DNA of 64,000 bases from Trichodelitschia bisporula (Eukaryota), in assembly GCA_010356995.1 (NCBI GenBank), contig ML996699.1, forward strand, positions 403,697 to 467,696, read 5' to 3'. The translations under genes and the position numbers were made by a program. The stretch's first letter is position 1, and every line of letters begins with the position of its first letter. Under the pieces are notes generated by a model that saw only the letters and a program-made list of their open reading frames with translations, made no database searches and was not told the DNA's origin. Of this stretch, positions 1 through 64,000 are shown one piece after another.

Positions 1-2820
1 GTCAACTGAACTCGAACTCTCCTTCGGGGATGTCCTCTCAACATCACGTTCCCGTATCTTAGCGTCATGGTCCTCGTTCCAATCGTCATCTTCCGGAGAA
101 GTAGGAGAGTCGGGTAGATCAAGGATACTACCGGACGGAGCTGACTTGCGGTAGGCCGTACTAGCTAAGACACGGCTGCGCTTGGGAATCGGAGCCTCGA
201 GCTTGTCTTCGCGTACGGAAATCGGAGTCTCCTCCATGGGTGTCCTTTCAACACCCTGGGCCGGAGGGGCAGGAGGATCAGGTTGATCAAGGACACCACC
301 GGACAGAGCTGACTTGCGGGCAGCCCCCAATCTTTTGAAGTACTCTCTACCTGATATTCCGGGAGGGCGGGTGCGCTTGCTGGGCGGAGCCTCAGATTTA
401 TCCAGGACCTCACCGGGTCGAACCGACTCGTGGTACGCATTCATGGCTTCGTTGTACCTGAAGTCGTGGTTGTGCGTGGAATGCGGAGTCTCCTGCCGGG
501 GTGTCCTCTCATCATCATGACCCGGACACTCATCACCATGTTCTGGACAAGGAGGAGAATCGGGTAGATCAAGGACACCACCGGACGTAGCTGACTTGCG
601 TATAGCCCTCATTTTCAGAGAACAGTCTGGATTTGATGTTGCGGGAAAGCGGATACCCTTGCTGGGCGGAGCCTCTAACCTTTTCCCAGGCCGTCGATGT
701 GATAGCACGTTCTCCTGAGGTTCTCCGGGCTGTTAGCATAAACTGCTTGGCTTCATATAGGCTAGGGGCTTACCTGCTCCCTGCGGCGTACCCGATATTG
801 TCGCATCGTCATCGACGAAACCGTAGCCTTGGGCGGGCCCTAAAATATCGCGCAGGGACGGGATCAGATATCGCGGATGCGGACACCACTCGTCTCCTAG
901 GCTAGCTGCTACCTCCTCCGCATCCGGCGCGGCGCCTTCCCAGCCGGCCTCAAGCCACGTGATTGCCAGGTTAACGTCGCCGACCTGGAATGCCTCAAGG
1001 AGTGGCCGCCCGCGGCCCCCGTCTCGCAACAAGCCGCTCTTCCTCCGGTCTAGAAAGGCGCGCGCAAGGGAGCCAAGGACTTCCGACTCGCTGCGGTGAT
1101 CCAATAGGGAGAGGCGGGCAAGGCGGGCGAGGCGCTTAAGCAATGTGCTCGACGGTTTCCCCTCCGGCCGCTGAACTAGGGCGGTTGGGTCGAGGAGGAG
1201 GCTGCTAAGTCTCTTGTAGCCGGTGTCGCGTATCGTCTTCATGTCTCGCCTCCACCGGGCGTCTGTGATGCGCTCGTCACTGCGGTGATTCTTTAGTTCC
1301 CCCACGGTCGCGTCCTCCAGGTGTGTTCTCTCAACATCCGGGATCGGAGGCGTAGGAGGAGCAGGATGCTCAGGAATACTATAGGACGGAGCATCATGAT
1401 TGAAGATACCGCCGGGCGGGGCAGGATGATCTAGGACACCACTGGACGGAGCAGGGTAATTATGAACACCACCAGACGGAACAGGATAATTAAAGACCCC
1501 ACCGGACGGGGCAGGATAGTCAGGAACACCACCGGCCGGAACAGGATGATCACGAACACCACCGGACGGAGCTGACTCGCGGTGGGCCTTACTGGCTAGG
1601 AGACGGTAGCGCTCTGGGACTGGAGCTTCGAGCACGTCTTCGTGTACGGAAATCGGTGTCTCCTCCGGGTGTCTCCTATCAACATCCTGGGCCGGGGGAG
1701 TAGGAGAAGCAGGTTGATCAAGGATACTACTGGACGGAGCAGACTTGCGGGCAGCCTTTGAGGCAAAGCCAATCCTTGGTTTGCTGATACGGGCGCGTTT
1801 GGGGTTCGGAGCCTCGAGCTCGCCTTCGTATCCGGAAACCGCCTCTGGGGCTGTCGACTCAACATGTTGGGCCGAAGAGGTGGTAGAATCAGGTTGATCG
1901 AGGCCTTGGACACCACAGAACAGAGCTGACTGGCGGGCTGACTTATTGGCCACAAACTTCGATGCTGAGCCTGGAACACTGGGGCGCTTGCCGTTCGAAG
2001 CGTCGAGCTCGTCTCCGTTTATGGAAGCTGGCTGATTGTTCCGCACAACTCTGGCCCACTCTTCCCATGTCTTCGGAGTAATCTCGTCCATAGCAGGCGG
2101 TGAGAAAACGGATCCTTCGACAGCTCGCTCGGCGTTGTTGCGGGCGGCGGCGCGGAAATTCTTCAACATCCGGTGCAGTTTGTTCCGGATGGTACCCGTA
2201 CTGCGGGACGGGAGCTGCTTCGCTATTTCCGGGAACGTCATACCCTTGGCACGACTATTGATGATGATGGCACATTCCTCATCAGTGAAGAGGGGCATTT
2301 TTTCAGGGCTGAGGGGGGTTTGGTCCTCAATGCCAGTATTGTCGCTGTTGTCTCCGGCGAAAGGAGCACTAGTAGGAGCACGGGATGGCGATTCAGTGTG
2401 ATTCCCGTCCAGCCTCGATGAAAATGGGGGGTTCCCGTTGCTATCCGAAGGTGAATTCAACTCATACAGATCGCGGCGGCGCTTGTTTGACGGTCGTGCC
2501 GGTGATACGTCGGGATCGGCAAGGTCCTCGACGCTTGGCCGGAGCAGCATACTCGGCCGTATAAGCTTGCCCGTTGATACCCGCGATCCGGAGATTTCGC
2601 CCGCATTGGACCGCGCTGACAACTTGTTCGATGGCGTATGCTGAGTACGAGAGGACTTGAGTAACATTGCGGATTCGGCGGCAGAGGGTAGTTTAGGAGT
2701 GACAGCTTCGCTAGTCGTGCCTCCCACAACTTCAGCACCGGGCAGCCACCCCTGAGCTCGCTTGCCAGGTGTACTGCCCAGGGAGCCGAAGCTGTTGCGT
2801 CCGTGATGCTCACGTGCCAT
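1..2820 (-). CDS. Myb/SANT-like domain protein with repeated histone H3 K27-tail-like modules (3' end lies beyond the window edge)
   Basis: ORF 2820..733. After the single TAA (735-733) the same frame is open from 732 to base 1 and encodes more copies of the same module. The TAA lies in a CTAAC branch site downstream of a GTAAGC donor at 773, so it is probably intronic. Myb-like segment LFTDEECAIIINSRAKGMTFPEIAKQLPSRSTGTIRNKLHRMLK at 2161-2292. Confidence 0.8.
1363..1572 (-). repeat. Coding tandem repeat, 30 nt / 10 aa x7 (APSGGVRDHP-like)
   Basis: Translation: APSGGVRDHP VPAGGVPDYP APSGGVFNYP VPSGGVHNYP APSSGVLDHP APPGGIFNHD APSYSIPEHP. Confidence 0.9.
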
Positions 2821-3265
2821 GGAAGGAACGGAGCAGACGACGTTGTACGCGGTCCAGGGTTAGGGTTAATCGGGTGGTTGGGAAGACGAAAAGATAATGA
2901 AGCTCGTAGTCGAAGAAAGATGTTGTGAAATTGTGGGCGTTAGAGGTTCGGCAAATAGCGTAGATGGCAACAGTGATCAGTTCGACAGGATGATATTGCT
3001 GGTCGGGCGGAGGGGGGGATGGTTTGCACAAAAGAGAGACAACGTTGGTGGACGCGTAGACGGAACGAGAGCTTTGGCCAGTCCGGCGGGTAAGGCGTTT
3101 GGAATCGCGCTAACAGGGGTAGTTGCGCACGGTTCCCGTGACTGCGGGGCTAGGATTTGGGGAGTGGCGGGGTGAAAGCAGCTACGAGGTACTCCACCAA
3201 AAAGTCCAACATCACCATATCTTGGCCTATAAACTTCTTTAACGTTGGATTCTGGTGTTTTCATC

Positions 3266-4736
3266 ATGCCCGACACTCCTTCTTCTCGGGGTCTACAAGT
3301 CCTCGACCCCGCATCCTTAACATTTACTACTCCTGCGAAAAAGATCCACAATGAAGCCGACGTCGACGTCTGGAAGACCACCGCCGCCTACGCTGACATC
3401 CTCACCTTCCTGCACCTCCTCAATGCCGCCATGTTTCCGCATATAGAGCCTGGAGCGTCCGCAAATGTCCAATACTGGGAGCTCGACAGTCCCGCGGTGC
3501 CTCTCTCCTCGCCCGTCCTGCAGCTCCAAGCCCTCCTTGCCGCCCTCGATGAGCTTATCGCTTCTGCTCCACCCGCCACTGGCCCGCGCCGCTTTGGCAA
3601 CGTCGCCTTCCGCGTGTGGTATAAGCTTGCGGAGGATAAGCTTGATGAGCTGCTGGATACACACGTGCCGAAGCCGGCTCTGGCAGCACGCGTCGAGCTG
3701 CGCTCATATCTGCTAGGGAGTTTCGGGAGCGCACAGCGGCTGGACTACGGGACGGGCCACGAGTTGAGCTTCTTGGCTTTTCTCGGGGGTCTATGGAAGA
3801 TGGGCGTGTTTGAGACGGGGACAAACGGGATAGAGGAGCGGGGAATCGTGCTGGGGGTTATCGAGCCGTGAGTCGTACCACTTCATGTTCGCCCTGTCTA
3901 ATCCCCGTCACAGCTACCTCCGCCTCATCCGCCGCCTCATCCTAACCTACAATCTCGAGCCTGCAGGCTCCCACGGCGTCTGGGGTCTAGACGACCACTC
4001 CTTCCTCCCCTACATCTTCGGCTCCGCCCAGCTCAGCCCCCCCGTAAGCGACCTGTTCCACCTCCCAACCGAAGGCTCCGCGTCCAACGCCCCCGATCCC
4101 CCCGATGTCACAAAGAAACCCGTCGTCGAGCGTGAGCGCACCCGCAACATGTACTTCAGCGCCATCGGCTTCATCAACGACGTCAAGCGCGGGCCCTTCT
4201 GGGAACACAGCCCGATCCTGTTCGATATCTCGGGCGTCAAGGCGGGGTGGGCGAAGATTAATATCGGAATGATGAAGATGTATGCTGCGGAGGTTCTTGC
4301 TAAGTTTCCGGTTATCCAACACTTTCCTTTCGGAGCCTTGTTTTCTTGGGAGCGTGCACCGGGTCTGCCTCCTGCACCGGAGTATTCGAACCCGGCGCCG
4401 ATGGCGAGGCCGACTGCGACGCAAGCTGGTGCTGGGACTGCTGCACCGTGGACCGCTGCTGGATCTCAGGGAGCCTCGGCGCGCATGCCGCCTCCCCCTC
4501 AGGCTGGAACGGGAACAGCTGCGCCATGGGCTGCAGCTGGATCACAGGCTGCCTCGGCGCGCATGCCTCCTCCCCAGGCTGGTAGAGGAACAGCTGCTCC
4601 ATGGGCTTCGACGGGCTCACAGGGCGCGTCGGCGCGTATGCCGCCTCCGACCGGGACACGGGCACCGTTCACATCAACAACGCGGGCTCCCATGGGACCG
4701 CCTGATTTTGGAGGAGAGCATGGGACTGGACCTTGA
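3266..4736 (+). CDS. RRD1: Serine/threonine-protein phosphatase 2A activator (PTPA family, Rrd1-like)
   Basis: PTPA motifs [74 protein letters not shown]. Intron 3868-3913 (GTGAGT..CAG) joins the two ORFs in frame. Confidence 0.93.
4425..4649 (+). repeat. Coding tandem repeat, ~75-78 nt x3 ([24 protein letters not shown])
   Basis: Three similar units in the C-terminal tail of the PTPA protein. Confidence 0.85.
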
Positions 4737-51800: not shown

Positions 51801-52376
51801 AGGATATGTGGCCTGGCCTCTCATCTTTCCTGTTCTTTGATCTTTCGTCTTACTCTCAATCATGCGCTCGTCTTTGGCATACGTGCTGTGATGATGCTCC
51901 TATTAGCAACGAAGCCGCATACTCACCTCTGATTCAACCTGCATTTGTGCGAGCTACGAGTCGCCCCTTTCACCTTCTACTGAGCATTGTCTGGCCCCCA
52001 TGGCTCTCCTTGTGTCGTGAGAGGACGACGTTTATCTTTGTCGTTGAGAGCCTTTACTGTGGACGATGACAGAGGCTCCGGCGCCTTTCTCGAGGGCTTA
52101 CCACGTTAGCAACACTGCCAAATTGTACGAAGTCAACCCGTCATCTGAGGCCGCCATTCCCACCGTATCACCGCGTAGTTCACGATACACAATGAGCGCA
52201 AGAAGATGAGCAAAAGTGGTAAGACCTTCTATGCTATTCATGTCTATCGCGAACTACCTATGCGCAGTCCGCCCAAAAAGAGCAACCCAAACTCCAAATC
52301 AAAGTCAATCCTAAAAATGCCGTTACCTCATCCCCATTGGCTCAATACCATTTTTGCTCTCTCCCTTCAGCCACCC

Positions 52377-55300
52377 TCAAATCACACTCTCAATCGTCCC
52401 ATCATCAAAATCCAGCGTCATCTCACCATCCGCCCCGGGTACACCCTCACACCTCACCCGCACCTCAAGCATCACATTGGGATCCGTCGCCGTATAGTCC
52501 ACACGATCGGCCATCGCATCTGTCCACCCCACCGTGGGGACCACACCCCCCACCTCCGTACCGCCAATCATGAAAACTGCCCTACACCCCGCCAGTATCC
52601 TCGTCTGCCTCGTCCCGCACCCACCCTATACTGCGCCCCAGAACATAGCGTCAGGGCCTGCAAAACACTCCACTCAGCCCCGACATCACTCGAAGCGACC
52701 CGTGTCAGACGCGAACCGCCGGGCGTGTGCTGGCCTGCATCCTCGGGGGCAGAGAATGTGATGGTGGGAGACGCAGTCGCAAAACCCCACCCCAGCGGCT
52801 CGCTGTTGGCATCACTCAACTCAAACTCGCCATTGACAATGAGGTTGCCGATGTTGGCGCATGAGGCGGCAACTTGGGCTTCCGTCGCGGACTTGTTCGC
52901 CGGGCGGAGGCTGGTCAGGGCGGCGATGGCGGCAGTGTTGTTGACCGGAGCGGAGGGTGGTGAGGGTGAAGGTGAGGCTGAGGGAGTGGGAAGTGTAAGG
53001 AGGCTGAGGGGGGAGGTTGAAGTGCACATACAATCCGGCGACCCGCTCGTGTACGCAATCTGCGTTACTACGGACACGGATGTCACGGTTACGCACATGG
53101 ACTCGCTGGGCGCGAAGGGCGGGGACCCGGATGGGAGCCCGGAGGCCGGGCACGGGACCGTGCCAGTCGGGAACATCGGGACGGGGGCTGTTACGGGCGC
53201 AGTTCCGGTACCGAGTGGCGCTGTGTTGTTAATCCCCGGGAATGAAGGAGGAGAGGCAGTCCCGCTCCTGTTGCCGCTTTCGGCCGAGACGGTACCGGTG
53301 GGCCGGGGCGTGCTGGCGTTGAATGGCGGGTACGGCGCGGTGCCCGTGCCGAGAGGTGTGCTGATATTGAAGCCCAGGGCCGACGGTGGGGATGCAGTCC
53401 GGCTCCTGTTGCCGGTCTCGGTGCTTGGGGCCGTGCTATTCGCCGGCGTCAGGGCGGTGCCCGTCGGCCCGGGTGTGCTGGCGTTTAATGGTGGGGAGGG
53501 GAAGCCGGACGGCGCGGGGGCAGTGCCCGTTCCAAATGGGCTAATGAAGTTCATTGACGGTACCGGCAGACCGGACGAGGGGGCGCTAGGCGGTGCGGTC
53601 CCGGTGCCAGCCGGAAGCGTGCTGTTGGCGCTCGGGTACGGCGCAGTTCCCGTCCCCAGCGGAACAGTCCCGTTGATCCCGGGTGACGAGGACGGGCCCT
53701 CGGGCGGACTCCCGTGCCGCTCCGATTCCCGCTCATGGAGCTGGGCACCGCGTTATTCGCTGGCGTTGAGCCATTCGTCAGCGTGGGGAGGAAGCCCGAG
53801 CTTGGGCCTGTGCCGGTGGGGGCGGGGAAGGTGACGTTCGTCCCTGGCGGGGTTTCAACCGGCGGACTGGCTGTCCCGGAGCGGTTTTCCCCGGTTGAGC
53901 TTGGTGAGGTGCCATTTAATGGGGCGGGGAGGCTGGCGCTTGGTCCAGGGGCTGTGCCGGACGGGAAGGTGATGTTGTACTCTTGGGTGTAGGTGTCGGC
54001 TGGCGGACTGGCTGTCCCGGAGCGGTTCTCGCCTGTTGAGCTCGGTGTGGTGGTGCCGTTGGTGAGAGTGGACGGACCGGTGCCTGTAGGGCCGGTGCTG
54101 GTGCCGTTGAGTGGAGATGGTGGAGAGCCGATCCCGCTGGGAGCCGGGCTGGTGCTGTTGAGTGAGGGGACTTCGGACGAGCCAGTTTCAACGGGTAAGC
54201 TGGTGGTGTTCAGGGGCGGGAGAGATGTCGCAGCCGTAGCGTTTAGGCTAGGGGTACTCGTGCTGTTACCTGTAGGCAGAACGCCTCCCATCCCCGTAGC
54301 TCCGTTCGTAGCACCGGAAATAACTGACGTCATCGTTGTGACGCTGATGCTGTTGATAGCCGTGACATTGCCCGTGGGCAGCACGCTGCCCGTGCCCGTG
54401 GCTTCGCTAGCCGATCCGCTCGTCGCCGGCGACAAGCTGAACGTAACTTCGGAAACGTTGAACGAGACGCTGAACGGTGGGAACACGCCGCCGGTCCCGG
54501 TGTTCCCGCTCGTTACTCCGCTTGTGACGCTGGTGACGATGATGGTTTCTGTGGTCACGTTGATCGAGGCCACGGTGGTGTTCGGGGATGGCAAGATCAC
54601 GCCGGATGGGGCGCTCGAGAGCGTGGCTTCGATGGCGGAGGTGTTGAGGAAGTAAGTCGTCGATGAAGGGATTCCGGATTGCGGGAGCACGCCGCCTGTG
54701 CCTGTCGCGCCGCCGGTGGGCCCGCTTGATAGTGCGGTGCCGATGGACACAGAGGTCGAGTTGAAAACGAGCGTGCTAACGGTAGGGAATACGCCGCCCG
54801 TCCCCGTCCCGCCGCCTGTCTCGCCGCTCGACTCTGCCGTCCCAACCGACACAGAGGCTGAATTGAAAACGAGCACGCTGACAGTAGGAGATGCCCCGCG
54901 GGTCCCGAGGTCGGGGGTGCTCGCGCTCGTGGCGCTGGATTCGATGACGGTCACGTTGCTCGTGGGGAACACGCCGCCGGTGCCGGTCGCCCCGCTTGTT
55001 TCGCCGCTGGTGATGGATGTAGTCGCGTTGATGGACGTGCTGTTTAGGACGAGGGTGCTCTCGCTGGGCGAAGGAGGGAGTACACCGCCGGTGCCGGTTG
55101 CCCCGCTTGTTGGGCCGCTGGTGATGGATGTGGTCTCGATGACGGACGTGCTGTTGAGGACTAGGGTGCTTTCGCTGGGCGAAGGAGGAAGTACGCCCCC
55201 GGTGCCGGTTTGCCCGCTTGTGGCGCCTGAGAACACGGTACAGACGGCCGTGAAGAGAACCCCACTCACAGTCGTAGACGCCGGCACGGCCGGGCCGACG

Positions 55301-61600: not shown

Positions 61601-64000
61601 CTACCCCACCATCTCCTCCCCAACCACCCCCTCCCCCTCCGCCACACCCCCCTCCTCCCCCTCATCAACATCCTCCCACTCCGCCTCCTCAGTGGCATCC
61701 TCAGCCGCTTCCTCCGCCGCAATCACAGCCGACACCATCCCCGCCGCACCCCACACCGCCCCCTCAAAAAACTCCTGCACACTCAGAGCAACCTCGTCCG
61801 CCACGACCCGGGCATCAGCCTCCTTCTTCCGCGCAAACTTCTCCCCTTCCCTCTTCGCCTCCTGCATGCGCAGATCCTCCTCCCGGACACAACGGGCGCG
61901 TATTTCAGGTTTCTTCGCGCAGGCAGGACAGTGAAAACTCCCGACGCATACCTGGCACGGGCAGCTTGGGTTCAACTTAACGCACCCCTAGTCGCCACAC
62001 ATTAGCCCCATCCCTAACCCACACCAATGCACAAGTAAACTCACCTCACAAACCAGCACCCTACATCCCCCACACTCCCTCATCTCCGCCGCACACCTGG
62101 CCCTCACATCCCCCACAGGGCGTGTCGCCTGACAAAAATAGCTCCCACACCCCACCCACTGCACCGGATGCGCGCCATACCCAGGCAGCAACATCTTCCT
62201 CCTCTGCTCCTCCAGAAACCCGCCCGCCCGCGCCGCCTCATCCCTCTTCAACCCCGAGCAACTCAAACTCCGCGCCCTCGCCCCCGTCCCCGCCACCAAC
62301 CCCCTCCTCGGCAACTCAGGGATAGAGAAAGAAGGCGGCGCCGGAGCGGCACGGGGCAGCGCCAGCGACGTAGCGAGCAAGGGCGCGGAATCAGAAAGAC
62401 TAGCCGTAGACGCCGAGTCGTCCTCATCGCCCGGCGCCGCAGACGGCGGTCTGAAATCGGGAATCTGCAGATTCGCCAGCTCCAGCGCTCGGGGATGCAC
62501 GCTCGCCGCCGCCGCCAACCGTGCAGGCGCAGACCTTACATACTCCCTCTCCGTAAACAGCTCCCGAAACCCACAGCGCCTCAACTTCAACGCTCGAAAA
62601 TCATGTTCCTTACACAGCGGCTTCTTGCACTTCCTGCAATTAACCTTCCAGCGAAAAGAGCGGTAACAATCCTGACACAGACTCCGGGGACACGTCTGCG
62701 CCTGCAGATCCAAACTATCCTGCTGCAAATACGGCAGGATATCAATATTCCCCCCAATAATCTCCTCATACAGCATCGTATTCTTCATATTCGGCGCCAA
62801 GAGCAAGTTCATAAAGTCCGCATCCTCGTACTGTCTCTGCCGCGGCAGCGGCACCGCGCGGATCCGATCCGAGCCCTCGCCGCTGATGTTAGGCCCCAGG
62901 AAAGCCACGCCGCCTCCGCCCGAGAAAATGGGTTCCAGGCAGCACCAGTGCATGTTGAGCTTCGGCGGGGGCGGCGGCTGCGCGGACTGCGCCGCCTCGC
63001 CGCCCTCCTCCGAGTCATCCGTGTCCTCACCCGGCTGTGGCTCGCTCATCAGATTCGGCGAGCGGGTCGCGCCGGCCGCCCACCAGAACTTGCCGGCGCG
63101 GTCGCCCTGGCGGTGGGCATACCCGTGCGCGCCGCCAGAAGAATGTCGTGTCTTGGCGCGCTTGCTAGGAATGGGCCGGTTGAAGGCGCACGAGGCGCAC
63201 AGCGTCTTGCGGCAGCCCATGCAGTGCATCTTGATAGAGCAGGTCTCGCAGCGCTCGAGGATAGTCTCGTTGCACCCGTCGCAGCGCACATCCTCGACAA
63301 ACGTGCGGTGACTCTTGCGCAGGTGCGCCGGGACGTACTTCCCCTCGCCCACGGGCCCGTCCTCGGCGCCCAGCGGCTCGCCCTCGTGTCCGACATCGGC
63401 GTCCTCCCACAGACGCCCGCTCGGTCGTGTGCTGCTGCTGCCGCTGCTGCCGTTCTCGCTATTCGGCCCGCCGATGCGGTTCCCCGAGCGCCACAACCGG
63501 TCGAACGGCACCCAAACCTCGGTCGTGCCGGCGGCGGCGCGGTTGGAGTGGTAATCCTTGCGGCGGAAGCAGCGGGCGCCGGGGGTCGGACACCAGGCCG
63601 TGTCGGTCCAGATGCCGAGCTGGTGGCAGATCTCGATGAGTTCGTGCGTGGGCTCGGAGTCGGAGTCGCGGCGCACGAGCGACGAGGGGAGATACGGTCG
63701 TCGGCGGTGGTGTCGGCATCGGTACGTATACAGGCTCTTGAGCGCGAGGTCCGACTTGCCAAGCCAATGGGCGTTGGCGGGGTTTTGCAGCTGCAGGAAG
63801 GGAACAATGTGGTACTTAATCGAGACGTTTTTGCACCCGCGCACCGACAAATGTTCCAACGTGCTGACCCGCGGCTGAAGCACGCGCGACACCAGCGCTA
63901 CGCCCGACACCGCAGTATTGCACAAGTCCAAGCTCTTGAGGCGCGAGGCCATGGGCATGACGACGCGGATGAGCAGCGCATCGAGGGCGTACTGCTTGGA
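61601..64000 (-). CDS. LRR-like and Cys-rich protein, probably F-box family (5' end lies outside the window)
   Basis: Frame open to the window edge; LRR-like RLKSLDLCNTAV and TLEHLSVRGCKNVS; many CxxC pairs. Intron 62044-61988 joins the last exon (CPCQVC..HCPAC, acidic tail). The F-box itself is not visible. Confidence 0.8.

What the first reader, a model, noticed from the sequence alone, without database searches (positions are those of the whole stretch)
124..2292. Myb/SANT-like protein with a multivalent array of histone H3 K27-tail mimics
Seen: six related motifs in one reading frame: ANKSARQSALFCGV (1909-1950), [11 protein letters not shown] (1732-1764), LASKAHRESAPSGGV (1555-1599), RAIRKSATSGGV (574-609), GAARKSALSGGV (292-327) and LASTAYRKSAPSGSI (124-168). 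Most sit in a larger ~45-90 aa module (LEAPxPKRxR...[13 protein letters not shown]...ERT.EETPISV) that includes an NLS-like basic patch. Established: fungal H3 residues 20-35 are [16 protein letters not shown], so copy 2 is an 11/11 match to H3 21-31 and the consensus equals H3 20-35 minus T32. No histone fold follows. Single histone-mimic motifs are known (EZHIP, JARID2, G9a, influenza NS1), but I do not know of a fungal Myb protein with an amplified K27 array. Inference: a captured and amplified H3 fragment that could act as a decoy, substrate or recruiter for PRC2, K27 readers/acetylases or S28 kinases, tethered to chromatin by the Myb/SANT domain. The three downstream copies are missed by the ORF track because that frame runs off the window.
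Basis: partly seen in the sequence, partly recalled or inferred. Interest (0 to 1): 0.92.

Follow-up and report, generated by a model that had tools for sequence, protein, structure and literature searches.

The report
Repeated histone-H3-tail copies in fungal protein
An expressed gene of a little-studied ascomycete fungus encodes a long, mostly unstructured protein with a DNA-binding-type domain and at least six diverging copies of the histone H3 stretch around lysine 27; these copies might imitate the histone tail, but that function is untested.

Summary
All six motifs lie in one minus-strand frame at the stated coordinates. The gene starts at ATG 2820. A 51-nt intron (723-773) is removed in frame in RNA-like contigs, and the transcript runs off the window. 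At least three more module-like stretches follow beyond it.

A profile built from the six modules alone finds histone H3 tails as all 60 listed PDB hits (best E 0.002). Three copies score above all 20,000 shuffles. The other three are H3-like only in R-K-S-A...G-G-V.

The N-terminal domain is a three-helix HTH. Its sequence relatives are Myb proteins, but Pfam's Myb threshold is not met.

Origin from an H3-like founder unit is well supported. Function as a K27 decoy is not shown. Modules diverge with pN/pS near 1, the K27-equivalent residue is lost in 2 of 6 copies, and the conserved sub-core is conserved at synonymous sites too. Yet the 437-codon array stays open, which argues for selection on the reading frame.

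No ortholog was found. The species (best match Trichodelitschia bisporula) has no close relative in the databases, and the gene seems absent from the deposited proteins.

Verdict: a real, unusual, new variant of histone-tail mimicry with unproven function.

The parts
2821..3047 (-). 5' untranslated part of the transcript. The RNA-like contigs end at 3008 (X3) and 3047 (X4). The gene is divergent from the PTPA gene that starts at 3266 (+).
   Evidence: table 8; in-frame stop upstream of ATG 2820
774..2820 (-). Coding exon 1 (682 codons plus 1 base), ATG at 2820-2818
   Evidence: covered without interruption by contigs of X3 and X4
723..773 (-). 51-nt intron (GT..AG on the minus strand, holds an in-frame TAA). 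Its removal keeps the frame.
   Evidence: table 5: joint 722->774 in X3 and X4 and not in DNA runs X1 and X2
1..722 (-). Coding exon 2 (first 240 codons seen). It has no stop and runs off the window. Transcript contigs continue 2,764 nt (X3) and 4,062 nt (X4) further.
2473..2484 (-). KRRR basic patch (aa 113-116), read as a nuclear localisation signal by inference only
   Evidence: sequence reading
2149..2292 (-). Myb/SANT-like three-helix HTH (aa 177-224)
   Evidence: 14 of 36 hits fall here; 11 of the 11 scanned carry Pfam Myb_DNA-binding. Pfam hits on the domain itself are sub-threshold. AF2 model pLDDT 79, three helices, best Foldseek rows are HTH, GcrA and c-Myb.
1822..2010 (-). Module 1 (degenerate core ANKSARQSALFCGV, K27-equivalent is Q)
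1633..1821 (-). Module 2 (core [15 protein letters not shown], an 11 of 11 match to H3 21-31)
1534..1632 (-). Module 3 (core LASKAHRESAPSGGV, K27-equivalent is E)
1358..1572 (-). 30-nt tandem repeat, about 7 copies, encoding P-S-G-G-V-x-x-x-P-A units. It is an expansion of the 3' half of the module core.
   Evidence: TRF period 30, 7.2 copies, 69% matches
775..1383 (-). Non-repeat central region (aa 480-682). No family could be assigned.
   Evidence: no Pfam hit; AF2 pLDDT 44.6
859..1074 (-). Stretch (aa 583-654) resembling the N-terminal part of a DDE_Tnp_4 (PIF/Harbinger) transposase domain. This is a weak lead.
   Evidence: P0024, E 3.2e-5; 32% identity over 72 aa; not supported
463..681 (-). 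Module 4 (core MRAIRKSATSGGV)
202..399 (-). Module 5 (core LGAARKSALSGGV)
1..201 (-). Module 6 (core LASTAYRKSAPSGSI). Further module-like stretches follow beyond the window.
   Evidence: table 8

Best explanation
This is an expressed, lineage-restricted gene of Trichodelitschia bisporula or a very close relative. It is apparently absent from the deposited protein set. It encodes a protein of at least 923 aa that is largely unstructured. The protein has one Myb/SANT-like HTH near the N-terminus, basic K-R-x-R patches, and an array of 33-73-aa modules. There are six modules in the window, and at least three more module-like stretches lie just beyond it. The founder unit of the array was copied from, or shaped to match, histone H3 residues 20-35. 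The array then grew and keeps turning over by duplication, slippage and gene conversion. The most likely mechanism (inferred, not shown) runs as follows. The HTH and the basic patches bring the protein to the nucleus and to DNA. The best-preserved cores ([10 protein letters not shown]) then act as many short linear motifs that compete with, or stand in for, the real H3 K27-S28 segment. The partners would be whichever factor recognises that segment: the PRC2 active site, a K27 acetylase or deacetylase, an Aurora-type S28 kinase, or a phospho-serine reader. The invariant residues are R, S and A rather than K, so the S28-like R-x-S site is the better candidate for the working residue than K27.
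For: Shown: one open frame with six modules. Shown: contigs of X3 and X4 skip the 51-nt GT..AG intron here and the 46-nt intron of the neighbouring PTPA gene, while DNA runs X1 and X2 do not, and X3 has no cover in the intergenic bin 3133-3306. This is read as transcription and in-frame splicing. Shown: more copies lie beyond the window. One is a 128-nt stretch with 5 differences from 1623-1750, one is 25 nt like 560-584, and one is 97 nt with 23 differences from 1654-1750 (table 8). Shown: H3 tails are all 60 listed PDB hits of the module profile and 18 of 22 hits of modules 2-3 as a single sequence. Shown: three cores exceed all 20,000 shuffles, and the composition-based expectation of an exact 11-mer in the protein is 1.6e-9. 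Shown: the consensus of the six copies reproduces H3 20-35 minus one residue. Shown: the frame is kept open over 437 array codons although modules differ by about 36%. In neutral simulations at 20% change per site, 0 of 2,000 stayed stop-free, and the other five frames hold 20-59 stops. Shown: the Myb-type HTH. By established knowledge, PRC2 and H3K27me3 exist in the Dothideomycetes Zymoseptoria tritici and Dothistroma septosporum (passages of PMC7348808; their class is recalled).
Against: Nothing here shows binding or modification. Between modules pN/pS is 0.94 overall and 1.08 in the core. The H3 20-25-like half is unconserved (pS 0.555, pN 0.551). The conserved R-K-S-A-x-S sub-core is even more conserved at synonymous sites (pS 0.062, against 0.44 elsewhere) than at replacement sites (pN 0.142). 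That pattern points to DNA-level homogenisation rather than protein-level selection. The K27-equivalent is Q or E in 2 of 6 copies, and P30 is L or T in 3 of 6. The equally invariant 'LDxP' is not H3-like. Three copies are H3-like only at chance level when taken alone. No ortholog exists in 1.84 billion representative proteins, so conservation between species is untested. GC3 (0.57) is lower than in five neighbouring genes (0.595-0.723), as in a weakly expressed or young gene. It is unknown whether this species has PRC2, because no genome is held. X3 and X4 are one sample and one study, and their RNA label is a guess.
Confidence: 0.42

Rival explanations
1. Evolutionary fossil. This would be a young chimeric gene that picked up an H3 N-tail coding fragment, possibly together with transposon debris. 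Unequal recombination then multiplied the fragment. The H3-likeness is a relic that is decaying, and the protein's role, if it has one, does not depend on imitating H3.
For: pN/pS is about 1 between modules. Three of six cores are already degenerate, and K27 is lost in two. Synonymous-site conservation of the sub-core fits gene conversion rather than selection on the peptide. A slippage-type 30-nt tandem array and a near-identical copy just beyond the window show ongoing mechanical turnover. There is no ortholog and no self-hit in the protein collections. GC3 is low.
Against: The frame is kept open through 437 diverged array codons (0 of 2,000 neutral simulations at 20% change). All length differences between modules are in frame. 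The gene is transcribed and correctly spliced. R, S, A, D and P are invariant in all six copies.
Confidence: 0.35
2. Phospho-regulated linear-motif array. The working unit is [13 protein letters not shown], a basophilic-kinase site or phospho-serine docking site, with its own partners. Its resemblance to H3 is convergent or irrelevant to function.
For: The invariant residues are R, S and A plus D and P of the non-H3 'LDxP', and not the lysine. The motif is multiplied further as P-S-G-G-V units without the ARKS part. From recalled knowledge (not looked up here), R-x-S is the preference of Aurora/PKA-type kinases, and phosphorylated H3 S28 with P at +2 is a 14-3-3 site.
Against: Convergence would not be expected to reproduce 15 of 16 H3 residues in the consensus, or 11 of 11 in copy 2. 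P at +2 is present in only 3 of 6 copies.
Confidence: 0.13
3. Transposon-derived chromatin protein. The gene descends from a PIF/Harbinger element, which encodes a Myb-like DNA-binding protein plus a DDE_Tnp_4 nuclease. It has lost catalysis and uses the H3-like array to interfere with silencing, either for the host or for the element.
For: aa 583-654 align to a DDE_Tnp_4 fragment (P0024; library-wide E 3.2e-5, BLASTP 32% identity over 72 aa, including the shared motif AGWEGxAxD). A Myb-type HTH sits in the same protein. Harbinger pairs have repeatedly been recruited to chromatin complexes. Examples are ALP1/ALP2 with PRC2 (abstract of PMC7282668), and HDP1/HDP2, insect and vertebrate cases (listing only).
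Against: The link rests on a single hit, whose score is helped by two tandem copies of the fragment in P0024. Pfam finds no DDE_Tnp_4 in the protein at E<=10. The atlas searches gave nothing related, and the AF2 model is unusable (pLDDT 44.6). The Myb-like domain resembles canonical Myb repeats and generic HTH domains, and no Harbinger-type Myb family was hit. The position of the first catalytic Asp holds Leu, and the domain is truncated. The locus was assembled in one piece with unique neighbours.
Confidence: 0.07
4. Chance resemblance in a low-complexity A/S/K/R/P-rich protein.
For: The protein is compositionally biased. 21 of 36 library hits are spurious repeat matches. Three cores are within the shuffle range.
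Against: Scores of 50, 40 and 38 compare with a maximum of 36 in 20,000 shuffles. The expectation of an exact 11-mer is 1.6e-9. The unbiased profile search returns H3 as all 60 listed hits.
Confidence: 0.03

Closest known systems
EZHIP (mammalian PRC2 inhibitor, 'oncohistone mimic')
   Same: It is a lineage-restricted, fast-evolving protein whose activity resides in a short H3K27-region-like motif. It also carries a putative NLS, a serine-rich region and tandem repeats (abstract of bioRxiv 10.64898/2025.12.12.693809).
   Different: EZHIP has one mimic motif of the K27M type, highly conserved among orthologs. Here there are six to nine or more copies of a wild-type-like K27/S28 segment up to 16 residues long, no orthologs are known, and the lysine is not conserved between copies. 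There is no sequence relationship.
Automethylated or substrate-type histone mimics in chromatin enzymes and cofactors (G9a/GLP and JARID2 recalled; SETDB1 H3K9-like motifs in the listing)
   Same: They are endogenous nuclear proteins that carry ARK(S/T)-type H3-like motifs, which are modified and then read by histone readers.
   Different: Those carry one or two motifs of 4-6 residues, mostly of the K9 type, inside enzymes or cofactors. Here there is a long array of K27-type copies in a protein with no catalytic domain detected.
Viral histone mimics (influenza NS1 recalled; SARS-CoV-2 ORF8 ARKS, disputed; hepatitis delta antigen: listings)
   Same: They are short H3-tail-like motifs in disordered regions, used to engage host chromatin factors.
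   Different: Those are single, very short motifs in pathogen proteins aimed at another organism's chromatin. This is a cellular gene of the fungus itself.
Domesticated Harbinger pairs ALP1/ALP2 (plant PRC2 accessory proteins)
   Same: A possible combination of a Myb-type DNA-binding module and a dead DDE_Tnp_4 remnant in a chromatin-related setting (abstract of PMC7282668).
   Different: ALP1 and ALP2 are two proteins, they bind PRC2 through MSI1, and they have no histone-like array. Here the transposase link rests on one weak hit.
Histone H3 itself
   Same: Residues 20-35.
   Different: There is no histone fold and no residues 1-19 or 36 onward in recognisable form. The motif is repeated and embedded in LEAP..PKRxR and LDxP..EETPISV flanks.

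Membership tests
Histone H3 (Pfam Histone, histone fold) | Histone-fold domain after the tail | tested here: not met
   There is no Histone family hit at E<=1 or E<=10. The PDB alignments cover only H3 residues about 8-46.
Histone H3 (Pfam Histone, histone fold) | N-terminal tail sequence around K27/S28 | tested here: met
   Copy 2 matches 11 of 11. The consensus equals H3 20-35 minus one residue. The profile finds H3 tails as all 60 listed PDB rows.
Histone mimics (functional class) | Short linear motif copying a histone tail segment in a non-histone protein | tested here: met
Histone mimics (functional class) | Motif is bound or modified by histone writers, readers or erasers, with an effect on chromatin | not testable with these tools
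   This needs biochemistry and genetics. No partner sequence of this species was available, because no genome is held.
Myb/SANT (PF00249, PF13921) | Score above Pfam's gathering threshold | tested here: not met
   Myb_DNA-binding scored 13.3 bits (cut-off 24.4) and Myb_DNA-bind_6 scored 13.4 (cut-off 22.9), each covering nearly the whole model. Sigma70_r4_2 scored higher at 20.0 bits.
Myb/SANT (PF00249, PF13921) | Three-helix HTH fold and sequence relatives that are Myb proteins | tested here: inconclusive
   14 of 36 library hits align to aa 129-268. All 11 of these that were scanned are Pfam Myb proteins. The AF2 model has pLDDT 79 and three helices. The Foldseek best rows are GcrA, LuxR-type HTH, c-Myb and B-Myb, all at E>=0.09. 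The first aromatic position holds F rather than W.
PIF/Harbinger transposase (DDE_Tnp_4, PF13359) | Pfam domain match | tested here: not met
   There is no hit at E<=10 on the 203-aa region. The only link is the pairwise match to P0024.
PIF/Harbinger transposase (DDE_Tnp_4, PF13359) | Catalytic D-D-E triad | tested here: not met
   In the alignment to P0024, the first Asp position (the D before G-T-L in P0024) is Leu and the second Asp is kept. The region that would hold the third acidic residue is missing before the next module. The assignment of catalytic positions is recalled, not computed.
Multi-copy transposable element | Dispersed copies in the genome | tested here: inconclusive
   The module profile hits no other place in the 64-kb window (2 of 1,558 six-frame segments, both belonging to this gene). 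A DNA contig spans the gene and its unique neighbours in one piece. The whole genome could not be searched.

The most novel reading that the evidence does not exclude
A fungal counterpart of EZHIP and ALP1/ALP2 in one protein. It would be a transposon-derived protein, combining a Myb-type HTH with a dead Harbinger nuclease remnant, that captured the H3 K27-S28 tail segment and amplified it into an array of nine or more copies. Tethered to chromatin, the array would act as a high-valency pseudosubstrate or sink for PRC2 or for the S28 kinase and 14-3-3 axis. It would thereby locally oppose facultative heterochromatin, and copy number would evolve rapidly as a tuning knob.
Probability: 0.1. Interest if true: 0.9.

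Novelty: new variant of a known kind. Interest (0 to 1): 0.62.

Why it matters
Known histone mimics carry one or two very short motifs. An endogenous protein with many long, near-exact copies of the H3 K27/S28 segment would be a natural multivalent bait for the enzymes and readers of facultative heterochromatin. That makes a directly testable case in a fungal class where PRC2 is active in studied members. It would show how a cell, or a selfish element, can regulate histone-modifying machinery by copying the substrate itself. Even if the copies are functionless relics, the locus shows a histone tail fragment incorporated into a new expressed gene and multiplied there. The gene also seems to have escaped annotation.

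Tried and rejected
- Whole-genome look-up: no genome is held for this window. The species' own H3 gene, PRC2 genes and paralogs could therefore not be examined.
- Protein word-index searches with the 682-aa exon-1 product, at lengths 'near' and 'longer': no hit at E<=1e-3, and not even the protein itself.
- Exhaustive phmmer against 1.84 billion representatives gave 36 hits and no ortholog. 21 hits matched the P-rich tandem region. 17 of these 21 were read by eye and none holds the module; P0011, P0019, P0031 and P0036 were not read. 14 hits matched the Myb-like region, and 1 was the DDE_Tnp_4 fragment.
- Exact look-up of ten ORF products of the window: none is in the collection. Most are probably unspliced ORFs, so this says little.
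- Metagenome scans: the protein-based scan matched 396 pattern stretches but none was a relative. The DNA pattern of the conserved sub-core gave 0 matches.
- ESM Atlas on the central region: only unrelated phage and primase clusters, and nothing above 0.75 among named clusters.
- AlphaFold2 of the central 203 aa: pLDDT 44.6, unusable, so no fold search was run on it.
- PDB sequence search of the central region: only MALT1 death-domain rows at E 0.26-0.37, treated as chance.
- Sequencing-run search: no RNA holder is listed. X3 and X4 are labelled RNA only as a guess. Their spliced contigs were used as described in the report.
- Earlier findings of this scan by place, by sequence and by words: nothing.
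- No complex prediction was run. No candidate partner (PRC2 subunit, kinase or 14-3-3 of this species) was available.
- Literature searches (listings and abstract starts only) showed no fungal or multi-copy H3K27-type mimic. The 10 papers naming the species (listing only) concern taxonomy and comparative genomics.
Full report
**Observation.**
Translating the minus strand of 1-2900 shows one frame that is open from ATG 2820 to base 1, except for a single TAA at about 733. They belong to six modules of 33-73 residues that align with one another. The majority consensus is xLEAPxPKRxR..[22 protein letters not shown]..AQDVERTxPEETPxSV. The invariant residues are the A of LEAP, the R, S and A of the core, and the D and P of 'LDxP'.

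**Gene model and expression.**
The stop at 733 lies in a 51-nt intron (773-723 on the minus strand, GT..AG, with a CTAAC branch-like site). Contigs of two runs labelled 'RNA?' (X3 and X4, which are one sample and one study) join 722 directly to 774. They also join 3867 to 3914 in the neighbouring PTPA gene. The two DNA runs (X1, X2) show neither joint, and X3 has no cover in the intergenic bin 3133-3306. I read this as transcription with in-frame splicing. The caveats are that the RNA label is a guess and that the evidence comes from one source.

The contigs start at 3008 and 3047, so the 5' UTR is about 190-230 nt. They continue 2,764 nt (X3) and 4,062 nt (X4) beyond window base 1, so the protein is longer than the 923 residues seen.

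Table 8 shows three stretches in the first 450 nt or so beyond the window:
- 128 nt with 5 differences from 1623-1750, the part of module 2 that encodes (A)[13 protein letters not shown]...LEAP;
- 25 nt like 560-584;
- 97 nt with 23 differences from 1654-1750.

At least three further module-like stretches therefore follow, one of them a recent duplicate.

**Is the likeness to H3 more than chance?**
- Modules 2-3 as a single query against all PDB sequences gave 22 hits at E<=10. Of these, 17 are histone H3 and one is a chain named Cse4 that carries the H3 tail. The remaining four are PbtD (3) and SufE (1). E-values were 0.09-0.8.
- A profile built from the six modules alone gave 105 hits. All 60 rows shown are H3 chains or peptides, or that Cse4 chain. 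The best E was 0.0019 and yeast-type H3 scored 0.012, aligned to H3 residues about 9-34.
- Against the 11-mer [11 protein letters not shown], the six cores score 50, 40, 38, 24, 24 and 22. In 20,000 shuffles of the protein the best site averaged 20 and never exceeded 36. The composition-based expectation of an exact 11-mer is 1.6e-9.

So copies 2, 3 and 6 are individually significant. Copies 1, 4 and 5 are H3-like only through homology with them. No histone fold follows. Within the 64-kb window the module occurs nowhere else, in 2 of 1,558 six-frame segments, both belonging to this gene, and there is no H3 gene in the window.

**How the array evolves.**
Codon by codon, the sub-core R-K-S-A-x-S uses the same codons in nearly all copies (CGC six of six, GCT six of six, TCA five of six).
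- Summed over the 15 module pairs, pN/pS is 0.94 for the whole module and 1.08 for the 21-column core.
- Split finer, the LASKAA-like half is unconserved (pS 0.555, pN 0.551).
- The R-K-S-A-x-S sub-core has pS 0.062 and pN 0.142, against pS 0.44 and pN 0.40 in the rest.

Conservation that is stronger at silent than at replacement sites is not what selection on a peptide gives. It fits gene conversion or recent homogenisation, or a constraint on the nucleotides.

A 30-nt tandem repeat of about 7 units (1358-1572) multiplies the P-S-G-G-V part of the core. The near-identical copy beyond the window shows recent duplication.

On the other hand, the frame is intact over 437 array codons although modules differ by about 36%. 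When the array was mutated at random by 20% per site, it acquired 7.4 stops on average and 0 of 2,000 trials stayed open. At 10% per site, 44 of 2,000 stayed open. The other five frames hold 20-59 stops. The reading frame is therefore under selection even though most of its sequence is not.

**Other parts of the protein.**
*The HTH domain.* Residues 177-224 give only sub-threshold Pfam hits: Sigma70_r4_2 at 20.0 bits, HTH_38 at 17.1, and Myb_DNA-binding at 13.3 against a cut-off of 24.4. However, 14 of the 36 library-wide phmmer hits align there. All 11 of these that I scanned carry Pfam Myb_DNA-binding well above threshold; three were not scanned. A single-sequence AlphaFold2 model has mean pLDDT 79 with three helices. 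Foldseek against the PDB found nothing at E<=0.001. The best rows are the GcrA DNA-binding domain, LuxR-type HTH domains, c-Myb and B-Myb repeats, Tc3 transposase HTH and SANT domains. 'Myb/SANT-like three-helix HTH' is a fair description, but family membership is not established.

*The central region.* The non-repeat region (aa 480-682) matches no Pfam family. Its AF2 model is unusable (pLDDT 44.6), and the two atlas searches gave nothing related. One library hit, P0024, is a DDE_Tnp_4 (PIF/Harbinger transposase) fragment present twice in tandem. It aligns to aa 583-654 at 32% identity, including the shared motif AGWEGxAxD (E 3.2e-5 library-wide). In that alignment the first catalytic Asp position is Leu and the second is kept. 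This is a lead, not a finding.

*Basic patches.* K-R-x-R patches in the modules and KRRR at aa 113-116 look like nuclear localisation signals. This is inference from sequence only.

**Organism and relatives.**
The neighbouring Nse2-type gene is 98% identical to a protein named from Trichodelitschia bisporula. The next best hits (Glonium, Coniosporium and others) are at or below 42% identity. The window therefore comes from that species or a very close relative, an isolated lineage of Dothideomycetes with no close relative in the collections.

That species' proteins are in the collection, yet the gene studied here has no self-hit in any search. It appears to be absent from the deposited protein set. 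Given the isolation of the lineage and the speed at which this protein changes, the lack of orthologs is weak evidence about its age.

PRC2 and H3K27me3 are documented in Zymoseptoria tritici, and Dothistroma septosporum is named among the models. Aspergillus fumigatus and Candida albicans lack PRC2 (passages of PMC7348808). That the first two are Dothideomycetes is recalled. Whether T. bisporula has PRC2 is unknown.

**What it most likely is and does.**
Origin: a consensus that matches 15 of 16 residues of H3 20-35, and one copy with 11 of 11, is far beyond what functional convergence on an ARKS-type site needs. I put descent from an H3 coding fragment at about 0.75, convergence at about 0.2 and chance below 0.05. 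The nucleotide comparison with the species' own H3 gene, which would decide this, could not be run.

Function, all inferred: the HTH and the basic patches would place the protein on nuclear DNA. The array would present many copies of the K27-S28 segment to whatever recognises it. Because R, S and A are invariant and the lysine is not, the serine (an R-x-S kinase site and possible phospho-reader site) is a better candidate for the working residue than K27. I give this mimic reading 0.42.

The main rival, at 0.35, is that the H3-likeness is a decaying relic in a young chimeric gene kept for some other property. The evidence for it is pN/pS near 1, degenerate copies and DNA-level homogenisation. 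Three further readings are a self-standing phospho-motif array (0.13), a Harbinger-derived chromatin protein (0.07, overlapping with the mimic reading) and chance (0.03).

**Comparison with what is known.**
- The nearest functional analogue is EZHIP. It is lineage-restricted, fast-evolving and repeat-bearing, with a short H3K27-region mimic and a putative NLS (abstract). But EZHIP has one K27M-type motif that is conserved among orthologs.
- Automethylated H3K9-like motifs in methyltransferases (a SETDB1 preprint appears in the listing; G9a and JARID2 are recalled) and viral mimics (listing) are single and very short.
- ALP1/ALP2 show that Harbinger-derived Myb and nuclease proteins can become PRC2 accessory factors (abstract), but they carry no histone-like motif.
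- Five literature searches (listings and abstract starts only) showed no fungal or multi-copy H3K27-type mimic.

I therefore file this as a new variant of a known kind (histone-tail mimicry), with function unproven.

**Verdict.**
The H3-derived array and the Myb-type HTH hold. A K27-specific decoy role is untested, and the pattern of conservation between copies does not favour it. Interest 0.62.

Noticed in passing
window 859-1074 (-), aa 583-654 of the product: This stretch resembles the first third of a DDE_Tnp_4 (PIF/Harbinger) transposase domain through one library hit (P0024). The first catalytic Asp position is replaced by Leu. Together with the Myb-type HTH, this hints at a transposon-derived gene. 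Pfam, atlas and AF2 gave no support.
   Followed up: partly
window 1-2820 (-): The gene has no self-hit in the protein collections, although a neighbouring gene's product from the same species is there at 98% identity. It seems to be missing from the deposited annotation.
   Followed up: partly
window 1732-1749, 1567-1584, 577-594, 295-312, 136-153, 1921-1938 (-): the R-K-S-A-x-S codons of the six modules: Synonymous sites of this sub-core are almost invariant between copies (pS 0.062, against 0.44 in the rest of the modules). This suggests gene conversion or a nucleotide-level constraint. It remains unexplained.
   Followed up: partly
window 3266-4736 (+): This is a PTPA (phosphotyrosyl phosphatase activator) gene, divergent from the H3-like gene. 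Its 46-nt intron (3868-3913) is confirmed by the RNA-like contigs. Its C-terminus carries three tandem copies of about 25 aa of a G/A/P-rich unit (..[17 protein letters not shown]..).
   Followed up: no
window 3050-3260: A short intergenic region (about 200 bp) lies between the 5' ends of the two divergent transcripts. It is probably a shared bidirectional promoter.
   Followed up: no
window 52206-54333 and 61988-64000: Long overlapping ORFs lie on both strands (542, 328 and 260 aa; 656 and 611 aa). The two that were scanned have no Pfam family. It was not worked out which strand is the coding one.
   Followed up: no
window 10277-46287: The surroundings are ordinary housekeeping genes: a protein kinase, a mitochondrial carrier, an Nse2 SUMO ligase, a MIP channel, RING and FHA proteins, and an M16 peptidase. 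RIP indices are unremarkable.
   Followed up: partly
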